Positions 4,068 through 63,480 of a stretch of 64,000 bases of DNA are shown in pieces (position 1 is the first letter of the stretch; each line of letters begins with the position of its first letter). The DNA is from Candidatus Hydrogenedens sp. GTDB taxonomy: Bacteria; Hydrogenedentota; Hydrogenedentia; Hydrogenedentales; Hydrogenedentaceae. The position numbers and the translations under genes are program-made. The notes under the pieces are model-generated. The model was given only the letters and a program-made list of their open reading frames with translations. It was not told the origin of the DNA and did not search any database. The DNA is taken from positions 1 to 64,000 of the forward strand of contig JBMFRC010000005.1 of NCBI GenBank assembly GCA_049968235.1, read 5' to 3'.

Positions 4068-5430
4068 GAATCATGAAATAGGTTTCTTGTTTATTTTCAA
4101 CAGGGCGAATAGTCAGTTTAAGAGTTCCTATTTCTTTTAGGAATTGTTTCCATGGTGAGAAAATCGCAGACATATCTCTTTCATTAATGCCGTTTAACAA
4201 TTCCTGTTTTGCGCACCAGAGAAAGATTTTTTCTATGTCCTCACTAATTTGTGGTATATTGATACTTATTATGTGAGATGTTTCTAAATCTTTTCTATTT
4301 TCATGAAGTTGGGTTATTATTTCTGCCAGAAAAGGTTCCTGAGTGCAAATAATCCATCCTTCTTTATAATAAACGAGAGAAAAACAAAAAGCATTGTTCC
4401 ACGCAGGAACGACATATCCCTCGAAAGAATTCCATTGGTGTGGATAAAATGGCAAATCTAAATCGAGTTCTGATAAGAGTCGCTTAATATCATTACTTTT
4501 ATAAGGGACCCAGAAACCAAAGATAGGAATAGGATTCAAAAATTTGTCTGACATACCCGAATAAAGAAAGACTCCTTTATTTAAAAGTCCTTTATCTCTA
4601 AATTGTAAATATAATTTTTCAGGAAAAGTGTCTTTAAAAGAAGATAAAAATATTAAAACAGGGTTTAAGGCTTTTGGGGGTATAAATGACAAAAGGGTAT
4701 TTTTTAATGAGTTCTCTAAGAGTATATCCTTTAACGGACTACACAAAAGAATGGATGAAATATTAGAATTAGAAAAATCCGAAAAAGGATTAATGTAATC
4801 TTCTGTTCTTCTATTATTAATATGCCCCTCGACAAACAAATTGTTTTCGGAATGAACTGAAAGGGATACTTTAACTTTTTCCCCTAATTCTATATAAGCC
4901 ATATAATTGTTTATACTTAACGGTTTTCTGGAACAAGGGACAACCTGATTTAGAATCGTATCTTTATTACTAATTAAAAGTTCATTCCCTTTCCATATGC
5001 AGTAATATTCTCTGTTATCAATAATATTGTTAGACATATTCCATAAAGATAAAAGAAACAATCGAAATAATCGTCCCGGTTTGATAGATACCAGATAATC
5101 TCCCTGTTTATTCCAACTGATGAGTAAAGGTTTTCCCACCCATAAATACCAGCGGAATGGAGTAGGTCTTATACCCCATTTTTTCCTAAAAAATAGTTCC
5201 ATATTATATAAATATTCAAAAAGATATTTACTTGCAGAGATAGTTATTGGCTGTTTCTTTACAGAACTCCAGAAATAAGGAAAATCTGGAAAATATATGG
5301 ATAAATTGGTATCCTGAATTACATACCCATGAAAACCCTGTTCAGGAGTTAGTATAAAAAAGATAAACCCTATGATACAAAAAGATAGAAAAATAATGAA
5401 TATTAAAAACTTTTTATATCTTCGTTTCAT
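4042..5430 (-). CDS. hypothetical membrane-anchored protein
   Basis: 462 aa with an N-terminal TM (FLIFIIFLSFCIIGFIFFIL). It overlaps the downstream gene by 26 bp, which suggests an operon. Confidence 0.45.
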   Translation of the reverse strand: MKRRYKKFLIFIIFLSFCIIGFIFFILTPEQGFHGYVIQDTNLSIYFPDFPYFWSSVKKQPITISASKYLFEYLYNMELFFRKKWGIRPTPFRWYLWVGKPLLISWNKQGDYLVSIKPGRLFRLFLLSLWNMSNNIIDNREYYCIWKGNELLISNKDTILNQVVPCSRKPLSINNYMAYIELGEKVKVSLSVHSENNLFVEGHINNRRTEDYINPFSDFSNSNISSILLCSPLKDILLENSLKNTLLSFIPPKALNPVLIFLSSFKDTFPEKLYLQFRDKGLLNKGVFLYSGMSDKFLNPIPIFGFWVPYKSNDIKRLLSELDLDLPFYPHQWNSFEGYVVPAWNNAFCFSLVYYKEGWIICTQEPFLAEIITQLHENRKDLETSHIISINIPQISEDIEKIFLWCAKQELLNGINERDMSAIFSPWKQFLKEIGTLKLTIRPVENKQETYFMIRGGFVNEK

Positions 5431-5594
5431 TTCATTTTCTTATTGCACCTTGAAATTTAATTAAGTCCGAATATTTGATATAATAAAGCATATCTTATCA
5501 TCAAAAGAAAAATTGTTGGGCAATTTTTGGGTTTGTATTCTTTAAATAATTATATAACAACAACTTATGTTCTTGTAAAAAAATAGATTTAAAT

Positions 5595-5621
5595 TAAAGA
5601 AAAATTTTATTTTGCCGATAA
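5595..5621 (+). promoter_or_regulatory. sigma-28 (FliA) class-3 flagellar promoter: TAAAGAAA-N11-GCCGATAA
   Basis: TAAAGAAA at 5595-5602, an 11-nt spacer, then GCCGATAA at 5614-5621. This matches the consensus TAAAGTTT-N11-GCCGATAA and lies about 45 bp upstream of the flgM ATG. Confidence 0.55.
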
Positions 5622-5666
5622 GATATATGTAAAATAGAAAACAATACAGATTTGGAGGAAAGTGAA

Positions 5667-5987
5667 ATGGTTGGAATTCAGAGTGTCGGCGGAATACCGG
5701 AACCGGTCCCGGAAAAACCGACGAAAGTAAAAAGTGACCGCGATAGCGGTGTTAAAGATATACGAGGCTCCGGGAAAGTAGATACATTAAAAGAAGACCA
5801 GGTAGTTATCAGTTCTGAGGCACAAGCAGCAGCAGAACTATCGCGGTTAATACAAATCAGTAAAGAGCAGGAAACCGTTCGACCAGAGAAAGTCGAAGAA
5901 GCAAAACAGCATTTAGAACGCGGGGATTATAAAAAAACAGAAGTAGTTCAGAAAATAGCAGAGAGAATTTTGAAAATATTGAGATAA
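5667..5987 (+). CDS. flgM: anti-sigma-28 factor FlgM
   Basis: The C-terminal region VRPEKVEEAKQHLERGDYKKTEVVQKIAERILKIL matches the FlgM signature (...KV..lK.aI..G.Y.vD..kiA..ll). It is small (106 aa) with a disordered N-terminus. RBS GGAGGAA is at 5655-5661. The ORF track's TTG at 5652 is less likely than the ATG at 5667. Confidence 0.6.
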   Translation: MVGIQSVGGIPEPVPEKPTKVKSDRDSGVKDIRGSGKVDTLKEDQVVISSEAQAAAELSRLIQISKEQETVRPEKVEEAKQHLERGDYKKTEVVQKIAERILKILR

Positions 5988-6011
5988 CATATACTTAAAC
6001 TTGCTATTCTC

Positions 6012-6050
6012 AACGGCGTATGTTTTTCAACATACGCCGTTTATTTTTTT
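6012..6050 (+). terminator. rho-independent terminator after flgM
   Basis: Stem ACGGCGTATG (6013-6022) pairs with CATACGCCGT (6031-6040), followed by TTATTTTTTT. Confidence 0.6.
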
Positions 6051-6122
6051 GATATTTACGGAAACATTGTATATACAAAAATCGTTTTTCATGATAGAAT
6101 ATTAAAATAAAGGAATATTGAT

Positions 6123-6857
6123 ATGAGATTATTTAGCATCACTTTATTATTTGCTCCCCTTATTCTTTCAAGTTGTGGAGTAGAATTGCTTACAACGACA
6201 GCCATTCAAGGAGAATTACAGGCACAACAACTAAAAAGTATGCAAAGACAGGTTCAAGGTATTGCTGACCAAACAGGTAAGATAAACTTAGAACGGGCTA
6301 TTCAAACCTTTCGTGCAGAAAATGGTAGATACCCGACATCGCTAAACGAATTAGTTCCCCAATATTTACCTTCATTGCCTTCTCCTTCCGGGAATAGTGC
6401 ATATAGTTTTGACCCGATAACAGGACAGATAATTACGGTTCCCTCAAGTATCCCGTCTGAAGATATCCGCAAGATGGAGCAGGTAAAATATGCAATTGCC
6501 CAATATGCACAGGCAACAGGTTATTACCCGGCAACATTGGACAGTCTCTATCCCTCTTATTTAAGTTTTCTTCCACGAACAAATGATGGACAGTTTTTTG
6601 TTTACAATGCACAAACGGGAAGTGTTTCTCATCCATTGCTTGCGGGGGCACAAACTTCTCAAACAACGACTCCCGGAGCACCCGCAGGTTCATATCCTAT
6701 GAACTCTGTTACAGGGGGAATGGTGGTTCAACAGCAACTCAATGGTATGACAAATTCCTCAGGTGCTGTAGGTTCTTATTCCCGCCAGAGTGTGCAACAT
6801 ATTCAGAATGATTATTCTAACAAACAAAATAAAGTTATGGATGATTTAGGGTTATAA
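6123..6857 (+). CDS. lipoprotein with two tandem GspG-like (type II secretion pseudopilin) globular motifs
   Basis: Lipobox LILSSC. The repeats are AIQTFRAENGRYPTSLNELVPQYLPSLP and AIAQYAQATGYYPATLDSLYPSYLSFLP. These resemble the GspG motif ...dnGrYPtteqGL.aLv..P. Confidence 0.5.
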   Translation: MRLFSITLLFAPLILSSCGVELLTTTAIQGELQAQQLKSMQRQVQGIADQTGKINLERAIQTFRAENGRYPTSLNELVPQYLPSLPSPSGNSAYSFDPITGQIITVPSSIPSEDIRKMEQVKYAIAQYAQATGYYPATLDSLYPSYLSFLPRTNDGQFFVYNAQTGSVSHPLLAGAQTSQTTTPGAPAGSYPMNSVTGGMVVQQQLNGMTNSSGAVGSYSRQSVQHIQNDYSNKQNKVMDDLGL

Positions 6858-11138: not shown

Positions 11139-11559
11139 CTAAGATTATTGTACAAAAAAACTACTAAAAAACGCAAGGTGTGGGATTCTTGTAAAAAAAC
11201 TTATAATGCCCATTACAATCAGGATAATGTAGGGGCGAAATATCTTTTACCCTTTCGTATAACTGCAATTATTCGTCATGTATATCCAGACATGAGTATT
11301 GGGTAATTAAAATGTTTGGATTCATTTCCAATTGTTTTTCAAATTCATACGGGGCGGATACATGTATATCTATGTATTTATTGGGACGAATGCTTATTCG
11401 TCTCTACATAGGCAAAAAATATTTTAAGAATAAACAAAAATCAATAGGTTACGTCATTAGGGGAAATAACTGTTCCCTTGTGTTTTCTTTGTTATTGAAT
11501 ATTGAATTATAATTAAGACATAATACAAGCATATTTTTAAGTAAGAAGGGCATATAATA

Positions 11560-18934: not shown

Positions 18935-20623
18935 TTATACTTTCTTTGCAGGAATAACACAGCGAAAACCAACTGTATTAAGTTTTGATTCCGGGAATAG
19001 TCCCTTGCGTGCTGTGCAGGTAATTCCTTCCGGTCCGGAATTCCAACAGCCACCGCGTAATGTTCTCAGTGGAGGATTGGGAACTGTTTCAGGATGGCTT
19101 CTCGCTATAGGGTAGGGTAGGTAGTAATCTCGTGTCCATTCCATAACATTTCCTGCAAGGTCATAAACACCTTCGGGTGTTTTTCCTTCTTCATGCATGG
19201 TTACAATGGAAGGCATGCCTAAATAATCATTAAAATTGCAATGGATTGTATCGGGTGGTGTATTGCCCCAGGGATATTTCCGATTTTCTTTTCCTCTTGC
19301 GGTGAATTCCCATTCCTTTTCTGAGGGTAACATTTTACCTGCCCATTGTGCATAAGCGTTGGCTTCAAACCATGAAATACCGACAATAGGTTGGTCCGGA
19401 CCGTTCAACATGGGGTCGTACCAATAGCGGGGAAGCGGTGCAGATGTCGCCTCGATATATTTTTTGTATTCTGCAACTGTTACAGGAAAAATATCTATCC
19501 AGAAGGGTTCTACAAATACTTCTTCTTCTGGCGCCTCTTCTGGAACTGCGTTGTTCCCCATAAGAAAATACCCACCCTCGATAAAAACCATATTTTCGGT
19601 AGATATGGCTTTATTCGATTCGGATGAAGTAATAATATGTATGGATTTCTCTTTATAGGAACTTTCAAAACTTTGTTCAAGAGCCATACGGAAATCTCGT
19701 GCCGTTTGCCAACGGTCCTCACGGTCTTCGGCAAGTGCTTTGTTCAGGACATCGTTGATAGATGGTGATATATCATTTCTTGTTTGTAAAAGGGGGACAT
19801 ACTGGTCAACAGGGGAACGTAATGTTAGTAATTCATATAAAATAAGCCCTACGGTATATAAATCAGAGCGTGTATCTGAGGGCCACATCTTCTTTTGCTC
19901 AGGTGAAGCATACGCATAAGTTCCGACAACACTCTGCTGTTGTGAAGGACTGACATTCGCGGTTGCTTGAGATATGGATTCTTCTACTGCAATAGCAAGA
20001 CCAAAATCCAGAACTTTTATCTTTTCTCCCGGCATAACCATAACATTTTCGGGCTTTAAATCACGATGGGTTACCCAACGGTGAGCGTATTCTAATGCCT
20101 GCAGTATTTGCAAGGTAAATTGTATGGCGATTCGTATTGGTAAAAACTGGCGGTCTATCCGTTGCTTTCGTAACATGTTCCGCAGAGATTGTCCTTCTAA
20201 GTATTCCATGCTCAAAAATAAAAACCCTTCGTTTGTATATGCTACATCGTGAACTGCAACAATATTTTCATGTCGTAAACGCCGTGCCAATTGTGCCTCT
20301 TTAATAAATAATTGCCCCGCTTTGGGTGTTTTCAATAAACTGGGATGCAAAAATTTCAACGCTACTACATCATCCAGTAATTCATCACGTGCTTTATACA
20401 CATACCCCATCCCTCCTTTTCCTATGATTCCTTCAATTATATACCGGTCATCAACACGGTCTCCTTCACGAAATTCAATTCGAAGAGATGCATCGTTCCC
20501 CATATTCGGTACCACAATAGGTTGGTGGCAATTAAAACAATAACTCGTTTTCCCTTGCACCACAGCAGGTACCCATATTTTTAAACCACAACTTTTACAT
20601 ATTACAGCAATAATAGGTTGCAT
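18935..20623 (-). CDS. Ser/Thr protein kinase fused to a C-terminal formylglycine-generating-enzyme (FGE-sulfatase) domain, with an N-terminal Zn-ribbon
   Basis: Kinase motifs GKGGMGYVYKA, VALK, HRDLKPEN, DFGLA and SPEQ. The C-terminal region (FIEGGYFLMGNN...RGGCWNS...) is typical of PF03781. N-terminal CKSCG...CFNCHQP. Confidence 0.75.
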   Translation of the reverse strand: MQPIIAVICKSCGLKIWVPAVVQGKTSYCFNCHQPIVVPNMGNDASLRIEFREGDRVDDRYIIEGIIGKGGMGYVYKARDELLDDVVALKFLHPSLLKTPKAGQLFIKEAQLARRLRHENIVAVHDVAYTNEGFLFLSMEYLEGQSLRNMLRKQRIDRQFLPIRIAIQFTLQILQALEYAHRWVTHRDLKPENVMVMPGEKIKVLDFGLAIAVEESISQATANVSPSQQQSVVGTYAYASPEQKKMWPSDTRSDLYTVGLILYELLTLRSPVDQYVPLLQTRNDISPSINDVLNKALAEDREDRWQTARDFRMALEQSFESSYKEKSIHIITSSESNKAISTENMVFIEGGYFLMGNNAVPEEAPEEEVFVEPFWIDIFPVTVAEYKKYIEATSAPLPRYWYDPMLNGPDQPIVGISWFEANAYAQWAGKMLPSEKEWEFTARGKENRKYPWGNTPPDTIHCNFNDYLGMPSIVTMHEEGKTPEGVYDLAGNVMEWTRDYYLPYPIARSHPETVPNPPLRTLRGGCWNSGPEGITCTARKGLFPESKLNTVGFRCVIPAKKV

Positions 20624-53170: not shown

Positions 53171-53418
53171 ATCTTGTCCTCCTTATTTCTTAAGGTTTGT
53201 GTTGCAATATAAAAAACTACATGTATTCCCGCTATTACTCCACACAAAACTATTAACCAAAATATCATCTTCATTAACAAACTCATTACCTTCATTCCTA
53301 CAAAAAACACCGCAACTCCTATGGCTAACTTACCTAAAGGATGCACAGATCCCACATATTTCCAGATATTTTCAATAAACCACTTCATTGCACCCCTGAT
53401 ACTTTCCCATTTTTTCAT
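53167..53418 (-). CDS. small membrane protein (83 aa, 2 TM)
   Basis: Hydrophobic helices LAIGVAVFFVGMKVMSLL and IFWLIVLCGVIAGIHVVFYI. Confidence 0.3.
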   Translation of the reverse strand: MKKWESIRGAMKWFIENIWKYVGSVHPLGKLAIGVAVFFVGMKVMSLLMKMIFWLIVLCGVIAGIHVVFYIATQTLRNKEDKI

Positions 53419-53988
53419 TATATCTTCTATTATCGGCTACCTTTTCTTTCTCTTTGTTCTGTTTACCTCTACTATCTTACAGTTCTCGCCCAATGGCGAC
53501 ATCTTCCTCGTTTCTTCCGGTAACAACCCCACTGCTTCCGATTCACTCTCTCCTCCTCTAAATAACTCCTTTATACCCCAACCACAAGCAATATAAATAC
53601 CGTCATACATCCGGATATTATCACCATCCACACAATTAGTTTCGGCTTTAATGGTGAAGTCTATTCATTGATTACAGTCTCCGGCGACGGCGTCGTCAAC
53701 CATGATATAACAGGATATAAACCACCTACACCAATTACTGCCCATTTTGCTATTTCAAAAAATATACTCATATTGTTATTTCCTTTATTAAGTTAATATT
53801 CAATTGTACTTAATATTTAGCAATACCCATGCCAAGCAGAACAAATGATAGAATATTTCTTTATTAAACAAAATAAATAACTGATATATAATAACTTAAA
53901 ACAAAATAATTATTTATAATGATTATATAAACCCTGCACTACATAAAGAGTATTTAAATCGTATTTACGAATTTAAATCAAAGAATAT

Positions 53989-54420
53989 TTACGCCCCCTT
54001 ATTCATTCTCTCTAATCGCTCCGAAAGCACATGAATAATATTCATTAAAAAACGAACCGCAATCTTCGTATCCATCATAGTAGACAATTGATGCTCATCC
54101 ATCGTAAACACACGGACAGGCATAAGAGCGACCGCAGACGCTGTACGCGGGGTCCTATTCAAAACGGACATCTCACCAAATACATCCCCAACACCAACCA
54201 CTGCTATCTCTTTCGCCTTCTTATATAAGCCCACCTTGCCTGATAATACTACAAACAAAGCAGAACCTAATTGCCCTTCATAAAAAATTGTTTTCCCCTG
54301 CGGATAATCAAAAATCTTCCCCTGCTTTAGAAGACATGCAATTTCTTCAGGGGTTAGCCCTTTGAATAAAGATACCTTTTCTGCATATTGCTGATACTTT
54401 GCCAAATTCTCCATATTCAA
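53989..54420 (-). CDS. stand-alone cyclic-nucleotide-binding (cNMP/CAP-family) domain protein
   Basis: FYEGQLGSALFVVLSGKVGLYK...GDVFGEMSVLNRTPRTASAVA is a canonical cNMP-binding beta-roll (FGE..l, R.A.a). No HTH follows. Confidence 0.65.
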   Translation of the reverse strand: MNMENLAKYQQYAEKVSLFKGLTPEEIACLLKQGKIFDYPQGKTIFYEGQLGSALFVVLSGKVGLYKKAKEIAVVGVGDVFGEMSVLNRTPRTASAVALMPVRVFTMDEHQLSTMMDTKIAVRFLMNIIHVLSERLERMNKGA

Positions 54421-55403: not shown

Positions 55404-55766
55404 ATGACACATACGACAAATCCTGAAGACAGAAGGAAGTATCCACGTAGTAAACATGGTCTGAAAATTCCTATTGAATCCAAAGGACCGGGAATACTCA
55501 ATCATGTAGATAATATTAGTGCCAATGGCGTTTTGTGCCATACGGTTCAGCCTATCCCGTTAATGACCCGGATGCAGATAGTAGTGGAACTCCCAAAACC
55601 TTTTAAACATCGAATTCTGGCAGAAGGAATTGTTGTCCGCTGTAATAAAGATGAACTGGGAGATGACCATTTTAAGGTGGGCATCGTTTTTACCCGCATC
55701 GATGAAAAAGACCAGGAAAAAATACGCGAATTTGTTGAACAGAGTCTCTCTAAAAAAGATGATTAG
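55404..55766 (+). CDS. PilZ-domain (c-di-GMP-binding) protein
   Basis: RRKYPRSKH (RxxxR) followed by DNISANGVLC (D.S.GG-like), which is the PilZ bipartite motif. RBS AGGAGGAA. Confidence 0.6.
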   Translation: MTHTTNPEDRRKYPRSKHGLKIPIESKGPGILNHVDNISANGVLCHTVQPIPLMTRMQIVVELPKPFKHRILAEGIVVRCNKDELGDDHFKVGIVFTRIDEKDQEKIREFVEQSLSKKDD

Positions 55767-59138: not shown

Positions 59139-60482
59139 ATGGTAATATATAGGTGTATATTAGAGAATGAATTTATGCTGATAGTAGATATAGTAAAATC
59201 GTTGAACAAAATGTTGGGTTTATTTAACCCACAATTAGCCCCGCATCTGGCACAGGTTACATATTTAAGTAAGAAAATAGGTGAACATCTGGGCTTGTCT
59301 CCACAGGCAATGCAGGACTTAGTAATAGCCTCGTCTATTCATGATATTGGTTTACTGTCTTTATCTCAGAAAGAAAGTTATTTGCTTTTAGAAGAGAGTT
59401 TCCCTGCGACGCATTCATTAACAGTCTTTTTATTGTTTAATAATATCCCATTTTTTCATCAGCCATCTAAGATCGTTAAATATCATCATGCTAATTATGA
59501 TAGGCGGGGCATCCATTCTTTTCAAAATAACTTTGATGATGGTTCAATTCCATTAGAAAGTTATATCATTAGATTGGCAGATCGATTGGCGGTTCATATA
59601 AATCCGTTGCAACCGATTCTCGAGCAGGTAGAGGATGTTTATCGATACATCGAGGTAAGCAAGGATCTTTACCATCCTGAAGTATTAGATGTATTTAATT
59701 CTGTTATTAAGAAGCAGGACTATCTATGGCTTGAATTAGTAACCATTCCCCCCGATTTGATGTTGGAAAAAATTTTATTAGAGAGTATGAGCCGGGTGCC
59801 GGAAAAAAATATATTTTCAGAAATAGCAGAAATAATCGGGTATTTAATTGATTTTAAAAGTCAATTTACAGCAAGTCATAGTTATTGTGTTGCGGAAATA
59901 TCTTCGTGGTTATTTCATTCCGGTAAGTTCCCCGTGGAAGAGCCGTGTGATATTATTCGAGAGGCAGGTTTCCTGCATGATATAGGGAAATTGGCTATAC
60001 CTATAGAGATACTTGAGAAACCGGGGCAACTCAATTCAAAAGAGTGGAATATTATGCGAGCCCATGTGTATTACAGTCATATTGCATTAGAGACTATGTA
60101 TAAGGAATATCCGTGTTTGAGGTATACGCCATATCATCATGAAAAATTAGATGGTTCGGGTTATCCATTCGGCTTAAAGGGAGAAGATATTCCTGTTATT
60201 GCTCGAATTATTGCTGTATCCGATGTATTTACTGCAATTACAGAGAACAGACCATACCGTGGCGAATTAACCGAAAGTGAAGTTGTAAAAATCATGAAGC
60301 CTATGGCAGTTTCAAAGAAGTTAGATGAAGATATAGTAAATTATGTCCTTGCCCATTTTAAAGAAGCAAAAGAACGGCGTGATGAGGCGGAATCTTTAGC
60401 CCGGCATGTTTATAACGGGTTTAGAGAAGATATTAGAAAGTATTACGAAAATGAACTAAAGAGTAAAAGAATAAGTGTATAA
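59139..60482 (+). CDS. tandem HD-GYP-domain protein (c-di-GMP phosphodiesterase family); the N-terminal copy looks degenerate
   Basis: C-terminal copy HSYCVAE...FLHDIGKLAIP...YHHEKLDGSGYPFGL (HD ... HHExxDGSGYP). N-terminal copy AQVTYLSKKIGE...SIHDIGLL...KYHHANYDRRG. Confidence 0.7.
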   Translation: MVIYRCILENEFMLIVDIVKSLNKMLGLFNPQLAPHLAQVTYLSKKIGEHLGLSPQAMQDLVIASSIHDIGLLSLSQKESYLLLEESFPATHSLTVFLLFNNIPFFHQPSKIVKYHHANYDRRGIHSFQNNFDDGSIPLESYIIRLADRLAVHINPLQPILEQVEDVYRYIEVSKDLYHPEVLDVFNSVIKKQDYLWLELVTIPPDLMLEKILLESMSRVPEKNIFSEIAEIIGYLIDFKSQFTASHSYCVAEISSWLFHSGKFPVEEPCDIIREAGFLHDIGKLAIPIEILEKPGQLNSKEWNIMRAHVYYSHIALETMYKEYPCLRYTPYHHEKLDGSGYPFGLKGEDIPVIARIIAVSDVFTAITENRPYRGELTESEVVKIMKPMAVSKKLDEDIVNYVLAHFKEAKERRDEAESLARHVYNGFREDIRKYYENELKSKRISV

Positions 60483-60507
60483 ATTGATTGTTCCGTAACA
60501 AAGATAT

Positions 60508-61089
60508 CTATTCGTGAGTATAAATAACCGCTAATATACAAGCCTTTTCTTCATTGGCTGAACGAACTTCATGTGGCGTGGTAGAATCGTAATAAATACT
60601 ATCCCCGGGAGATAAAATGAATATATCCGAACCATACGACACCTGTATTTTCCCGGAGAGAACGTAAATAAACTCTTCCCCTTCATGTACAGAGAACATA
60701 CAATCCTCAGATACGGTAGGATGAATATCAATTAAGAAAGGTTCCATATGTCTACCTGCTTTGTTACAGGCTAAAGGATGAAACTCGAGAGTGCTGGTGT
60801 CCGAAGCAACACGGATACCGGAAAAACGAACAATTGGGCTTTCTTTATCTCCCTTACGAGTAATTACAGGACCAGCATGAGTTTTTTCATCCAATAGGGT
60901 ACCTAAATGAACACCCAATCCACGGGCTATCTGGAGAAGCGGGGCTAAAGAAGGAGATAGATGTCCTTCTTCCAGTGCTTCAATGATTTCTGGTTTGCAA
61001 TGACTCCGTTGGGCTAACTCTTCACGAGAAATCCCTTTCTTCTCACGAAGTCGTGCTATATGTTGCCCCAAACTGCTTGAAAGTGCCAT
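60508..61089 (-). CDS. XRE-family HTH transcriptional regulator with a C-terminal cupin domain
   Basis: N-terminal HTH_3 (IARLREKKGISREELAQRS). The C-terminal cupin carries H..E...H-like residues (FSVHEGEEFIYVLSG ... TPHEV). Confidence 0.7.
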   Translation of the reverse strand: MALSSSLGQHIARLREKKGISREELAQRSHCKPEIIEALEEGHLSPSLAPLLQIARGLGVHLGTLLDEKTHAGPVITRKGDKESPIVRFSGIRVASDTSTLEFHPLACNKAGRHMEPFLIDIHPTVSEDCMFSVHEGEEFIYVLSGKIQVSYGSDIFILSPGDSIYYDSTTPHEVRSANEEKACILAVIYTHE

Positions 61090-61170
61090 AATGATTTCTC
61101 CTGTTCAGTTTAAAAATCCAGAAGTGTTTGTATCTATCATATCATAAGATTATGATTTATTAATATCCCT

Positions 61171-61977
61171 ATGATAACCAAAAACAAAATTCTGAAAATA
61201 CGAAACATTTTTGACAGGGTATATACCCGGTATCATCACAAACAATTTGCCTTGAACGACCCGGTACACTGGATTTATTCTTATCCTAACAATGAGGACA
61301 AGGAAATAATTGGACTTATCTCGGCACTTTTTGCTTTTGGGAATGCGAAATCATTTAATAGCAAGATAAAAAAAATTATCTCCTTATGGCATTCCCCGTC
61401 AAAAGAACTATTGAATTGGTCTTATAGTGATTTTCAATTGTCTCTTGCAGGGTTCCAACATAGATTTGTAAGTGGTGGAACTGTCGCTAATTTTTTATAT
61501 GGGCTCCGCCGAATTCGGGAAGAGTATGGAACGATAGGCTTTTGTATGTTACAGCATTATAAACAATCCTCGGGAAATTTATGGCATACATTACAAAGCA
61601 TTACAGATGAATTGCGTAAATTAGCGGAGTGTCCACTACATTTTTTAGTTCCTATGCCGAATAATGGGGGTGCCTGTAAACGGCTCTGGCTTTACCTTCG
61701 CTGGATGGTGCGAAGGGATGAAATTGATGTCGGTTGTTGGGATTTTATAAGACCCTCTCAATTAATTATTCCTTTAGATACTCACATATACCAATGGGCT
61801 ATATCCCTTCGTCTTATTTCTCCGCGTTCTCTAAATGCAAAAACCGCAATGTTATTAACGGAAATATTTCGTCAGATATGCCCTGAGGACCCTTTGCGGT
61901 ATGATTTTTCCCTTTGTCAGGCGGGTATGTTGGGAATGCGAGATAAAATCTTATATGATGAAAGGAAAGGAAAGTAA
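61171..61977 (+). CDS. hypothetical protein (DUF2400/TIGR02757-like)
   Basis: 268 aa. The N-terminal ...DPVHWIY.....EDKEIIGLISALFAFGN... resembles TIGR02757. It is adjacent to a nucleotide-sugar dehydrogenase. Low confidence. Confidence 0.4.
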   Translation: MITKNKILKIRNIFDRVYTRYHHKQFALNDPVHWIYSYPNNEDKEIIGLISALFAFGNAKSFNSKIKKIISLWHSPSKELLNWSYSDFQLSLAGFQHRFVSGGTVANFLYGLRRIREEYGTIGFCMLQHYKQSSGNLWHTLQSITDELRKLAECPLHFLVPMPNNGGACKRLWLYLRWMVRRDEIDVGCWDFIRPSQLIIPLDTHIYQWAISLRLISPRSLNAKTAMLLTEIFRQICPEDPLRYDFSLCQAGMLGMRDKILYDERKGK

Positions 61978-61991
61978 TAACTATTAAGGAT

Positions 61992-63284
61992 ATGTTTATG
62001 GAAACAGGATTGATAAAGAAAGTAGGTGTGTTAGGTTTAGGATATGTAGGGCTTCCTCTTGCATTGGAATTTCACAGGAGCGGTTTGCAAGTATGGGGAA
62101 TTGATACGGACAGGGAAAGAATTCATCATCTGAAATCCGGCATATCCTATATTGATGATGTATCCTCCGAAGTTATTCAGCAAGCGATGAAGACAAATCG
62201 CTTCCTTGTAACGGATGAGTATGAAATACTCAGGGAAATAGAAGCAATTTGTATTTGTGTCCCTACCCCTTTGAATAAGATTCAAGAACCGGACCTGTCT
62301 TTTATTATACAGGCGGTTGATGCTATAGAACCTTATCTGCATCAGGGGATGCTGATTGTGCTCGAAAGTACCACCTATCCCGGAACCACAGAAGAAGTGG
62401 TATTGCCCCGTTTGTCGAAATCAGGCTTGTGTGCAGGGAAAGACTTCTTCCTTGCTTTTTCACCAGAACGCTATGACCCGGGGAATAAACAATTCAATAT
62501 ACGAAATACACCCAAGATTATAGGCGGGATTACACCTGCATGTACTCAGAAAGCGAAAGAACTCTATCAAAATATCATTGCTGAAATTGTGCCTGTATCC
62601 AATGCAAAAACAGCAGAAATGGTGAAGTTACTGGAAAATACTTTTCGTGCTGTCAACATCGCACTTGTCAACGAAATGGCAATGATGTGTGATGCATTAG
62701 GCATAGATATATGGGAGGTAATAGATTCCGCTCGCACTAAACCATTTGGTTTTATGCCTTTCTATCCGGGACCCGGATTGGGGGGACATTGCATCCCTGT
62801 TGACCCGGTATATCTTTCCTGGAAAATGAAGACATTGAATTATACTGCACGATTTATAGAATTGGCGCGAACGATTAATTCTTCTATGCCAAAATATGTA
62901 GTAGAGAAAATGGCAGATAGCTTAAACAAGCAGAAAAAAAGTATTCAGGGAAGTAAAATTTTAATTTTAGGTGTAACTTATAAAAAGGATATTTCAGACC
63001 TTCGAGAGTCTCCTGCATTGGATATTATTTCATTACTGACAAGAAAAGGGGCGGATGTATATTTCTCTGACCCGTATGTAAGCCAATTAGAAGTTGAGGA
63101 GAAACAGTTACAATCTTACCCAATAACCGAGGACCTATCCTTATTTGACCTCGTAGTTATAATTACTGACCACTCCATCTATAACTATGAAGATATCGTT
63201 AAAAAAGCACAGTTCGTTTTAGATACGCGTAATGCGACAAAAAATATTAGCCCATTCTTAAAAGAAAAGGTAATAAAACTATAA
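61992..63284 (+). CDS. UDP-glucose/GDP-mannose-family nucleotide-sugar dehydrogenase (WecC/TviB/Ugd-like)
   Basis: N-terminal Rossmann VGVLGLGYVGLPLALEF. Catalytic Cys region GGHCIPVDP. Length 430 aa. Confidence 0.8.
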   Translation: MFMETGLIKKVGVLGLGYVGLPLALEFHRSGLQVWGIDTDRERIHHLKSGISYIDDVSSEVIQQAMKTNRFLVTDEYEILREIEAICICVPTPLNKIQEPDLSFIIQAVDAIEPYLHQGMLIVLESTTYPGTTEEVVLPRLSKSGLCAGKDFFLAFSPERYDPGNKQFNIRNTPKIIGGITPACTQKAKELYQNIIAEIVPVSNAKTAEMVKLLENTFRAVNIALVNEMAMMCDALGIDIWEVIDSARTKPFGFMPFYPGPGLGGHCIPVDPVYLSWKMKTLNYTARFIELARTINSSMPKYVVEKMADSLNKQKKSIQGSKILILGVTYKKDISDLRESPALDIISLLTRKGADVYFSDPYVSQLEVEEKQLQSYPITEDLSLFDLVVIITDHSIYNYEDIVKKAQFVLDTRNATKNISPFLKEKVIKL

Positions 63285-63480
63285 ATAGCAATAACGCTCC
63301 TGTATGCCTCTTTAATTCTGGGGAAATTATCTTGTACAAAATTCATTATATAACCCCTGCCTAGTATTTATACTAAATATCCTTGTAGTCTTTTACAAAA
63401 AATCTCCGCATTCTCTCTGTGTTACTCTCCCGTTAAAAATTGTATTCTACTCATTTCTGTTCGTTTAATTCATGATTAAA

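What the first reader, a model, noticed from the sequence alone, without database searches (positions are those of the whole stretch)
5595..6050. Textbook sigma-28 promoter driving flgM, with an intrinsic terminator: evidence for a flagellar regulon
TAAAGAAA-N11-GCCGATAA at 5595-5621 is an almost perfect FliA consensus. It sits ~45 bp upstream of a small ORF whose C-terminus matches FlgM, and flgM is classically a class-3, sigma-28-dependent gene. A strong hairpin+T-tract terminator follows at 6012-6050, making this a monocistronic unit. The flanking genes are not flagellar, so the flagellar hierarchy is dispersed. The adjacent lipoprotein has GspG-like motifs.
Basis: partly seen in the sequence, partly recalled or inferred. 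Interest (0 to 1): 0.5.

Follow-up and report, generated by a model that had tools for sequence, protein, structure and literature searches.

The report
Sigma-28 promoter driving lone flgM
A small stand-alone gene for the flagellar anti-sigma factor FlgM sits between a perfect sigma-28 promoter and a strong terminator in an uncultured Hydrogenedens bacterium; this is the textbook feedback arrangement, and the same promoter sits upstream of flgM in all 50 distinct related loci examined.

Summary
TAAAGAAA-N11-GCCGATAA lies at 5595-5621 (+) and is the only match in 64 kb, against 0.02 expected by chance. It ends 45 nt before the ATG at 5667 of a 106-aa ORF. That ORF hits Pfam FlgM above the gathering score. 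A 13-bp hairpin with a T-tract follows at 6012-6050 (z = -6.2).

The window comes from a Hydrogenedens species (phylum Hydrogenedentota), about 83% DNA identity to an H. terephthalicus-like contig. In 50 distinct flgM loci of this FlgM clade (GC 34-66%), the core cTAAAG-N14/15-GCCGATAa is nearly invariant while the surrounding sequence is unrelated. About 36 of 50 loci also have a hairpin plus T-tract after the stop codon.

flgM is always a lone gene among non-flagellar neighbours, so the "dispersed" reading is supported. No fliA or flagellar gene lies in the window. I could not scan this genome for them. Published KEGG tables list fliA, fliG, cheA and MCP genes in H. terephthalicus assemblies.

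Verdict: an ordinary sigma-28-dependent flgM unit with negative feedback, and a new member of a known kind. The "GspG-like" neighbour is only a sub-threshold match. Relatives also carry sigma-28-type motifs in front of two small non-coding-looking units and unknown proteins.

The parts
5595..5621 (+). Sigma-28 (FliA-type) promoter. The -35 element TAAAG is at 5595-5599 and the -10 element GCCGATAA is at 5614-5621 (TAAA-N15-GCCGATAA).
   Evidence: Only exact match in the window, 0.02 expected. The same bipartite motif lies upstream of flgM in all 50 distinct related loci with enough upstream DNA; core positions are 47-50 of 50 conserved.
5628..5666 (+). Predicted 5' untranslated region. The transcription start is inferred about 7 nt after the -10 element. 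The Shine-Dalgarno GGAGGA is at 5654-5659.
   Evidence: Sequence read directly. The start site is inferred from the usual sigma-28 promoter geometry and was not measured. In relatives the distance from the -10 end to the ATG is 38-56 nt in most loci, median 55.
5667..5987 (+). flgM coding sequence, 106 aa plus stop; the anti-sigma-28 factor.
   Evidence: PF04316 scores 32.5 bits against a gathering score of 25. TIGR03824 scores 31.2 bits, below its equivalog cut-off of 40.75. There are 92 homologues, several named FlgM by NCBI or JGI. A profile of the family weakly reaches a solved FlgM chain, 9wsf_B, E = 0.006.
6012..6050 (+). Intrinsic (Rho-independent) terminator. The 13-bp stem spans 6012-6024 and 6029-6041, with loop TTTC, followed by a T-tract.
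   Evidence: Terminator scan. Fold energy -19 kcal/mol, z = -6.2. Close relatives keep the hairpin, with an A-T to G-C change at the pair 6020/6033. About 36 of 50 distinct loci have a hairpin plus T-tract after flgM.

Best explanation
This is a self-contained, monocistronic flgM transcription unit of a Hydrogenedens species, read by RNA polymerase carrying the flagellar sigma factor sigma-28 (FliA).

The holoenzyme recognises TAAAG at -35 and GCCGATAA at -10. It starts about 7 nt downstream and makes a roughly 420-nt mRNA that ends at the hairpin and U-tract at 6012-6050. The product, FlgM, binds sigma-28 and holds it inactive.

Because flgM depends on sigma-28, the pair forms a negative feedback loop. 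Any free sigma-28 raises FlgM synthesis, which caps sigma-28 activity. By analogy with enteric bacteria and Bacillus, sigma-28 is released when the completed hook-basal body exports FlgM.

Shown here: the motif, its statistical significance, its conservation across this FlgM clade, the FlgM family assignment, the terminator, and the absence of flagellar neighbours.

Inferred: recognition by sigma-28, the start site, FlgM-sigma-28 binding, export of FlgM, and the presence of fliA in this particular genome.
For: - The motif is perfect and unique in the window.
- A census of 1.62 Mb (both strands) of related DNA found 89 sites matching at least 12 of 13 positions of TAAAG-N14/15-GCCGATAA. All but 10 site rows (7 distinct sites) are flgM promoters. 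By my calculation, uniform base composition predicts about 0.05 perfect sites.
- In 50 distinct loci the counts are C 43, T 50, A 48, A 50, A 50, G 50 at -35, and T 47, G 48, C 49, C 50, G 50, A 49, T 49, A 48, A 35 at -10. Positions around these blocks are unconserved and locus GC ranges from 0.34 to 0.66.
- The Pfam FlgM hit is above threshold. Sources name homologues FlgM or anti-sigma-28 factor, including two from Candidatus Hydrogenedentes MAGs.
- The terminator is strong and conserved.
- One clade member, L058, encodes a flagellar rod/hook/HAP C-terminal domain (PF06429, 60.5 bits) 4 kb from its flgM.
- Published KEGG annotation lists fliA (K02405) in 100 of the 179 catalogued Hydrogenedentota genomes by the table's percentage (55.9%), including two H. 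terephthalicus assemblies. It lists fliG in 108, and flagellar assembly genes in 72% of genomes (PMC11406978 supplements).
Against: - No fliA, flagellar or chemotaxis gene lies in the 64-kb window.
- No sigma-factor gene was detected in 811 kb of related DNA by tblastn with E. coli FliA.
- fliA presence rests on a published table for a sister species that shares about 83% DNA identity with the window, not on this genome.
- The TIGR03824 equivalog cut-off is not reached.
- No transcript data are available.
- The other genes carrying the motif in relatives are small non-coding-looking units and proteins of unknown family, not recognisable flagellar genes.
Confidence: 0.85

Rival explanations
1. 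The promoter is read by a sigma-28-family factor whose regulon in this lineage is mainly non-flagellar, as with WhiG in Streptomyces or sigma-28 in Chlamydia. The FlgM-like protein then gates that regulon without flagellar export.
For: flgM is never next to flagellar genes in any lineage examined. The other motif-bearing units in relatives are sRNA-like elements and proteins with no Pfam family. The published survey finds no flagellar assembly genes in 28% of Hydrogenedentota genomes.
Against: H. terephthalicus assemblies are listed with fliA, fliG, cheA and MCP genes. L058 has a flagellar axial-protein gene 4 kb from flgM. From general knowledge, FlgM-family anti-sigma factors are tied to flagellar systems, and WhiG and chlamydial sigma-28 use other partners. 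The sample of about 0.8 Mb is too small for the lack of flagellar targets to carry weight.
Confidence: 0.08
2. flgM is driven by two overlapping promoters, a housekeeping sigma-70 promoter plus the sigma-28 one. FlgM would then be made before sigma-28 becomes active, as with the class 2 plus class 3 transcription of flgM in Salmonella.
For: In L005 and L006 a TTGACA lies 17 nt upstream of TAAAGT, so the sigma-28 -35 element doubles as a sigma-70-like -10. In the window a weak TTGTAA-N16-TAAAGA occupies the same place.
Against: The 10 positions upstream of TAAAG show no conserved -35-like hexamer across 50 loci apart from the adjacent C. The sigma-70 scan of 5300-6300 found no plus-strand site upstream of flgM, and its total count equals the chance expectation of 4 against 3.9.
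Confidence: 0.1
3. The motif is a chance match in AT-rich intergenic DNA and has no promoter function.
For: The window is 37% GC, and 2 of 100 shuffles gave one match.
Against: The same bipartite motif, at the same spacing and a similar distance from the ATG, is present in 50 distinct loci. These include loci of 55-66% GC where the flanking sequence is unrelated.
Confidence: 0.01

Closest known systems
Class 3 (sigma-28-dependent) flgM promoter of Salmonella enterica and E. coli (own knowledge; E. coli flgM and flgN annotation seen)
   Same: A TAAAG...GCCGATAA promoter directly upstream of flgM. FlgM inhibits the sigma factor that transcribes it, giving negative feedback.
   Different: In enterics flgM lies inside the flgAMN cluster, is co-transcribed with flgN, and also has a class 2 promoter. 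Here it is a lone monocistronic gene with its own terminator and non-flagellar neighbours, and no conserved second promoter was found.
Bacillus subtilis sigma-D-dependent flgM operon (own knowledge)
   Same: A sigma-28-family promoter (TAAA-N15-GCCGATAT type) upstream of flgM in a bacterium without FlhDC. The published Hydrogenedentota table finds FlhDC in only one genome.
   Different: B. subtilis flgM is part of a multi-gene operon with flgK and flgL. Here the gene stands alone.
FlgM of the marine flagellar cluster in L090-L092 (flgFG-flgA-flgH-flgI-flgJ-flgM-flgN-flgK-flgL)
   Same: It also carries a sigma-28-like motif (TAAAGTTTT...GCCGAAAA) upstream of flgM.
   Different: That FlgM is a generic family member lacking the MVGIQG N-terminus, sits in a classical flagellar cluster, and comes from another lineage.
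Sigma-28-dependent small RNAs of E. coli. FlgO, MotR and FliX are annotated in NC_000913; their sigma-28 dependence is from my own knowledge.
   Same: This is a precedent for the sRNA-like units with sigma-28 motifs seen in relatives L007 and L015.
   Different: The E. coli sRNAs derive from UTRs of flagellar mRNAs. The Hydrogenedens units are free-standing, match no Rfam family, and are absent from the window.

Membership tests
FlgM anti-sigma-28 factor (Pfam PF04316) | Score above the Pfam gathering threshold over the C-terminal sigma-28-binding region | tested here: met
   32.5 bits against 25; residues 44-103 match model positions 1-55 of 55.
FlgM anti-sigma-28 factor (Pfam PF04316) | Small protein of about 90-110 aa with a variable N-terminal half and a conserved helical C-terminal half | tested here: met
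   106 aa. Alignment of 31 homologues shows a variable middle (residues about 20-43) and a conserved ISSEAQAAA...VR.ERV..A...I..G.Y core. No structure was predicted.
FlgM anti-sigma-28 factor (Pfam PF04316) | Cognate fliA (sigma-28) gene in the same genome | tested here: inconclusive
   None in the window or in 811 kb of related loci. The genome collection could not be scanned again. Published tables list fliA in H. terephthalicus assemblies GCA_000380785.1 and GCA_000493945.1.
FlgM anti-sigma-28 factor (Pfam PF04316) | Binds sigma-28 and is exported by the flagellar type III apparatus | not testable with these tools
   Requires biochemistry or genetics.
NCBIfam TIGR03824 FlgM equivalog | Score above the curated equivalog cut-off | tested here: not met
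   31.2 bits against 40.75, although the alignment spans 17-102 of the protein and 18-94 of 98 model positions. So this is a divergent FlgM by that stricter model. I file it at the Pfam family level only.
Sigma-28 (FliA/SigD/WhiG)-dependent promoter | -35 TAAA(G) and -10 GCCGATAA separated by 15 (+/-1) nt | tested here: met
   Exact match at 5595-5621.
Sigma-28 (FliA/SigD/WhiG)-dependent promoter | Located at promoter distance upstream of a gene and conserved relative to its flanks | tested here: met
   45 nt before the ATG. Conserved in 50 distinct loci with unconserved flanks; spacing is N15 in 20 loci and N16 in 30.
Sigma-28 (FliA/SigD/WhiG)-dependent promoter | Transcription start and dependence on sigma-28 shown experimentally | not testable with these tools
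   No transcript data available.
Intrinsic (Rho-independent) terminator | GC-rich hairpin immediately followed by a U-tract, more stable than chance | tested here: met
   13-bp stem with 6 GC pairs, followed by TATTTTTTT. Energy -19 kcal/mol, z = -6.2.
Type II secretion pseudopilin GspG (claimed for the neighbouring gene 6123-6857) | PF08334 above gathering threshold and an N-terminal prepilin leader with hydrophobic helix | tested here: not met
   PF08334 scores 15 bits against a cut-off of 21, E = 0.026, over residues 55-78 only. The N-terminus has a lipoprotein-type signal (LILSSC), not a prepilin motif. It resembles only the short G.YP..L..L motif, which occurs twice in the protein.

The most novel reading that the evidence does not exclude
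In Hydrogenedentota, FlgM and sigma-28 have become an autonomous regulatory module, physically uncoupled from flagellar genes. The module is marked by a nearly invariant FlgM N-terminus (MVGIQGxGGxPEP) that could be a lineage-specific export or docking signal. Its regulon may extend to free-standing small RNAs and to proteins of unknown family with no recognisable flagellar role.
Probability: 0.2. Interest if true: 0.45.

Novelty: new member of a known kind. Interest (0 to 1): 0.25.

Why it matters
The unit is a clean, experimentally usable sigma-28 promoter and terminator pair for an uncultured phylum.

It also shows that the sigma-28 recognition code (TAAAG / GCCGATAA) is unchanged in Hydrogenedentota. 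The motif can therefore be used directly to define the late flagellar regulon in these genomes.

It does not change current understanding of flagellar regulation. The modest added value is the clade-wide conservation of a lone, autoregulated flgM, together with hints of sigma-28-driven small transcripts in close relatives.

Tried and rejected
- **Searching the window for fliA, flagellar or che genes.** A Pfam scan of 45 ORFs found none.
- **Weaker copies of the motif in the window.** With up to 2 mismatches the count (14 and 11 for the two spacings) equals the chance level of about 9. Only 53430-53456 (-) has a perfect -10 and the right spacing. One such near-match is not significant, and the segment is absent from L015.
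- **tblastn with 42 E. coli flagellar, chemotaxis and FliA proteins against 811 kb of related DNA.** This gave one real flagellar hit (L058 FlgK-like) plus response-regulator and kinase noise. The sample is too small and too clustered to prove presence or absence.
- **Using the L058 fragment to reach Hydrogenedentota flagellar clusters.** The homologues were contig-edge or scaffold-gap fragments. The long contigs (L090-L093) belong to other lineages with a different FlgM.
[quoted passage not shown] 2015.** The paper is not held in the library.
- **Rfam.** It gave only sub-threshold terminator look-alikes in the window and nothing for the sRNA-like units.
- **PDB profile search.** It reached a solved FlgM only weakly, at E = 0.006; the other hits are chance.
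- **A minus-strand sigma-70-like site at 5633-5604 overlapping the promoter.** Ignored, because the site count equals chance.

Full report
**1. Observation**

Window 5595-5621 (+) reads TAAAGAAAAATTTTATTTTGCCGATAA. This is TAAAGAAA-N11-GCCGATAA, equivalently TAAA-N15-GCCGATAA. It is the only exact match on either strand of the 64-kb window; dinucleotide-preserving shuffles give 0.02 expected. Only four GCCGATAA octamers exist in the window.

Downstream, the ORF finder lists 5652-5987 starting at a TTG. The biological start is the ATG at 5667. A GGAGGA Shine-Dalgarno lies at 5654-5659, and 30 of the 31 aligned homologues begin MVG.

The 106-aa product matches Pfam FlgM (PF04316) at 32.5 bits against a gathering score of 25. 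The match covers residues 44-103 and the entire model. The stricter NCBIfam equivalog TIGR03824 aligns over residues 17-102 but scores 31.2 bits, below its cut-off of 40.75. A profile of the family reaches a solved FlgM chain (9wsf_B) only weakly, at E = 0.006.

A 13-bp hairpin at 6012-6041 is followed by a T-tract. Its energy is -19 kcal/mol, z = -6.2, and no shuffle out of 200 folds as well.

**2. Origin**

An identical 7-kb contig exists in assembly GCA_049969095.1. The closest named relative is Candidatus Hydrogenedens terephthalaticus (FlgM 93% identical). The window is 37.4% GC. It shares about 83% DNA identity and synteny over 0.4-11.2 kb with an H. terephthalicus-like metagenome contig, L015. 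The window therefore comes from a Hydrogenedens species, phylum Hydrogenedentota.

**3. Is the promoter real?**

The strongest evidence is comparative. I collected flgM loci from genomes, from contigs encoding specific homologues, and from metagenomes using an alignment of 31 FlgM homologues. These loci total about 747 kb, or about 811 kb including the window.

The best match to the sigma-28 consensus within 200 nt upstream of flgM was 10-12 of 12 positions in all but one locus with enough upstream DNA, most at 11 or 12. In the exception (L085) the search window began inside the gene, and a perfect site lies further upstream. Locus GC ranges from 0.34 to 0.66.

A census of all this DNA (1.62 Mb counting both strands) found 89 sites matching at least 12 of 13 positions of TAAAG-N14/15-GCCGATAA. 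All but 10 site rows, representing 7 distinct sites, are flgM promoters. My own arithmetic with uniform base composition predicts about 0.05 perfect sites by chance.

Over 50 distinct loci the counts are:
- -35 block: C 43, T 50, A 48, A 50, A 50, G 50.
- -10 block: T 47, G 48, C 49, C 50, G 50, A 49, T 49, A 48, A 35.

The surrounding columns are unconserved. Spacing is N15 in 20 loci and N16 in 30. The -10 element ends a median of 55 nt before the ATG.

This is a phylogenetic footprint of a sigma-28-type promoter. The chance-match explanation can be dismissed.

**4. Transcription unit**

Close relatives keep the same terminator hairpin, with a compensatory A-T to G-C change at the pair 6020/6033. 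More distant, GC-rich relatives have unrelated hairpins plus T-tracts at the same place. By a crude criterion, about 36 of 50 loci have one. In a few lineages (L011, L058) an RlpA-like gene follows directly.

In the window, the next gene starts 136 nt after the flgM stop codon, beyond the terminator, and has its own sigma-70-like site at 6072-6100. The monocistronic reading is supported.

**5. Flagellar context**

Pfam scans of 45 ORFs found no flagellar, chemotaxis or sigma-factor gene in the window. The neighbours of flgM differ completely among L007, L009, L011 and L013 and are never flagellar.

tblastn with 42 E. coli flagellar, chemotaxis and FliA proteins (taken) against all 811 kb gave one genuine flagellar hit. 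It is the C-terminus of a FlgK-like axial protein at the edge of L058, 4 kb from that locus's flgM. It is confirmed as PF06429 at 60.5 bits and is itself followed by non-flagellar genes.

Flagellar genes make up about 1.5% of a genome and are clustered (my estimate). The sample is therefore too small for the lack of further hits to mean anything.

I could not scan the genome collection again for fliA. The published survey of 179 Hydrogenedentota genomes (PMC11406978) states that 72% of genomes carry flagellar assembly genes. Its Data Set S1 lists:
- fliA (K02405) in 100 genomes, including GCA_000380785.1 and GCA_000493945.1. Both are classified there as Hydrogenedens terephthalicus, GC 36.9%.
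- fliG in 108 genomes, apparently including all three H. terephthalicus assemblies (the third accession is cut off in the stored table).
- MCP genes in all three H. terephthalicus assemblies, and cheA in two of them.

**6. Mechanism**

Shown: a perfect, conserved sigma-28 promoter; a Shine-Dalgarno site; a FlgM-family ORF; a terminator.

Inferred from established knowledge of FliA and FlgM in Salmonella, E. coli, Bacillus and Aquifex: the sigma-28 holoenzyme starts about 7 nt after GCCGATAA, near 5628. The roughly 420-nt mRNA encodes FlgM, which sequesters sigma-28. Because flgM needs sigma-28, the pair forms a negative feedback loop. Export of FlgM through the finished hook-basal body releases sigma-28 for late gene expression.

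I put this at 0.85.

Rivals:
- A sigma-28-family factor with a largely non-flagellar regulon (0.08).
- An additional overlapping sigma-70 promoter (0.10). This is suggested only in L005 and L006, where TTGACA-N17-TAAAGT overlaps the -35 element, and is not conserved elsewhere.
- Chance (0.01).

**7. Comparison with known systems**

This is the class 3 flgM arrangement known from enteric bacteria and the sigma-D-dependent flgM of Bacillus. It differs in three ways:
- The gene is isolated from all flagellar genes and has its own terminator.
- No conserved second promoter was found.
- The FlgM clade has a nearly invariant N-terminus, MVGIQGxGGxPEP, which the TIGR model does not cover.

NCBI and JGI already name homologues FlgM in Hydrogenedentes MAGs. 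The literature searches found no description of the promoter in this phylum. I rate it a new member of a known kind, with low to moderate interest.

**8. The neighbouring lipoprotein (6123-6857)**

It has a lipoprotein-type signal (LILSSC) and two copies of a G.YP.(S/T)L..L motif. The T2SSG match is sub-threshold: 15 bits against a cut-off of 21, over residues 55-78. "GspG-like motifs" is a fair description of a short resemblance, but the protein is not a pseudopilin. The gene stays next to flgM across the low-GC clade, down to L005, L006 and L021.

**9. Other sigma-28-type sites in relatives (outside the window)**

Perfect or near-perfect motifs also precede:
- Two tandem units of about 150 nt in L007, each ending in a hairpin and T-tract, with no conserved ORF. 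One of them is conserved in L015. Neither matches an Rfam family and neither is present in the window.
- A protein family sharing ...LQEGHFKGVADVRLRINF... in L041 and L064, and another unknown protein in L077. None has a Pfam family.

These are candidate regulon members and are the main reason the novel reading cannot be excluded.

Noticed in passing
L015 14065-14211 and L007 18601-18750 (relatives; not in the window): A sigma-28-type motif (perfect in L015, 12 of 13 in L007) is followed by about 105 nt and a hairpin plus T-tract. The unit is 90% identical between the two genomes. An indel breaks the only ORF, so it looks like a small RNA. Alternatively it could be a leaderless micro-ORF, since an ATG lies 6 nt after the -10 element. 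In L015 it sits upstream of the cNMP-binding gene whose orthologue is window 53989-54420 (-). No Rfam family matches.
   Followed up: partly
L007 18867-19024 (identical in L008 and L017): A second free-standing unit: a perfect sigma-28 motif, about 95 nt, then a terminator. It contains UACCUCCUU at 18976-18984, an anti-Shine-Dalgarno-like stretch. There is no ORF, no Rfam match, and no homologue in the window.
   Followed up: partly
L041 2747-3581 (+) and L064 389-1 (-): Sigma-28-type motifs (12 of 13 and 13 of 13) precede homologous proteins sharing ...LQEGHFKGVADVRLRINF.... They have no Pfam family. The neighbours in L041 look like an ammonium transporter and a P-II protein (judged by eye from their N-termini, not scanned), not flagellar genes. 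This is a possible new sigma-28 regulon member in Hydrogenedentota.
   Followed up: partly
L077 1101-1 (-): A perfect sigma-28 motif lies upstream of a protein longer than 338 aa with no Pfam hit. The protein runs off the contig.
   Followed up: no
window 53430-53456 (-): CAAAG-N14-GCCGATAA (12 of 13, with a perfect -10) ends 11 nt before the ATG at 53418 of an 83-aa membrane protein, followed by a 68-aa one. No Shine-Dalgarno is present, so it would be nearly leaderless. A single near-match is not significant, and the roughly 3-kb segment (about 51.0-54.0 kb) is absent from L015.
   Followed up: partly
window 5667-5708 (FlgM residues 1-14): The N-terminus MVGIQGxGGxPEP is nearly invariant across 31 homologues that are otherwise 39-93% identical. 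The TIGR03824 alignment starts only at residue 17, so the motif is not covered by that model. It could be a lineage-specific export or docking signal. The L064 protein above starts with a vaguely similar MNVAGIGRG.
   Followed up: no
window about 11177 and about 54476; also 60501-63286: Synteny with L015, L016 and L007 ends at 11177. L015 continues into window 54476-53993 in inverted orientation, so the window carries an inversion or rearrangement of about 43 kb relative to the H. terephthalicus-like contig. In L007 the block HTH-cupin / DUF2400 / UDP-glucose dehydrogenase (window 60.5-63.3 kb) lies directly upstream of the flgM block (window 0.5-11.2 kb).
   Followed up: partly
window 6123-6857 (+): A lipoprotein with two internal repeats of an A.Q....G.YP.(S/T)L..L.P.YL motif. 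It has a sub-threshold T2SSG hit. Its position next to flgM is conserved across the low-GC clade, down to 60% protein identity (L005, L006, L021).
   Followed up: partly
L005 about 2905-2940 and L006 about 2905-2940: TTGACA-N17-TAAAGT: a sigma-70-like promoter whose -10 would be the sigma-28 -35 element. This suggests a possible dual promoter in these two lineages only.
   Followed up: partly
L058 2-202 (+): The C-terminus of a FlgK-like flagellar axial protein (PF06429, 60.5 bits) lies 4 kb upstream of that locus's flgM. It is followed by three ORFs that resemble metabolic enzymes (not scanned against Pfam) rather than by flgL, so flagellar genes are scattered in this lineage too.
   Followed up: yes
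window 53989-54420 (-), 55404-55766 (+), 59139-60482 (+): Three second-messenger signalling genes lie close together: a cNMP-binding protein, a PilZ-domain protein and an HD_5 (HD-GYP-like) protein. None has a sigma-28 motif upstream.
   Followed up: no
L005 (CAZZMK010000060.1): This contig is labelled 'uncultured Nitrospirales bacterium'. It carries the Hydrogenedentota-type FlgM, promoter, terminator and adjacent lipoprotein at 38% GC, so it is probably a binning or labelling error.
   Followed up: no
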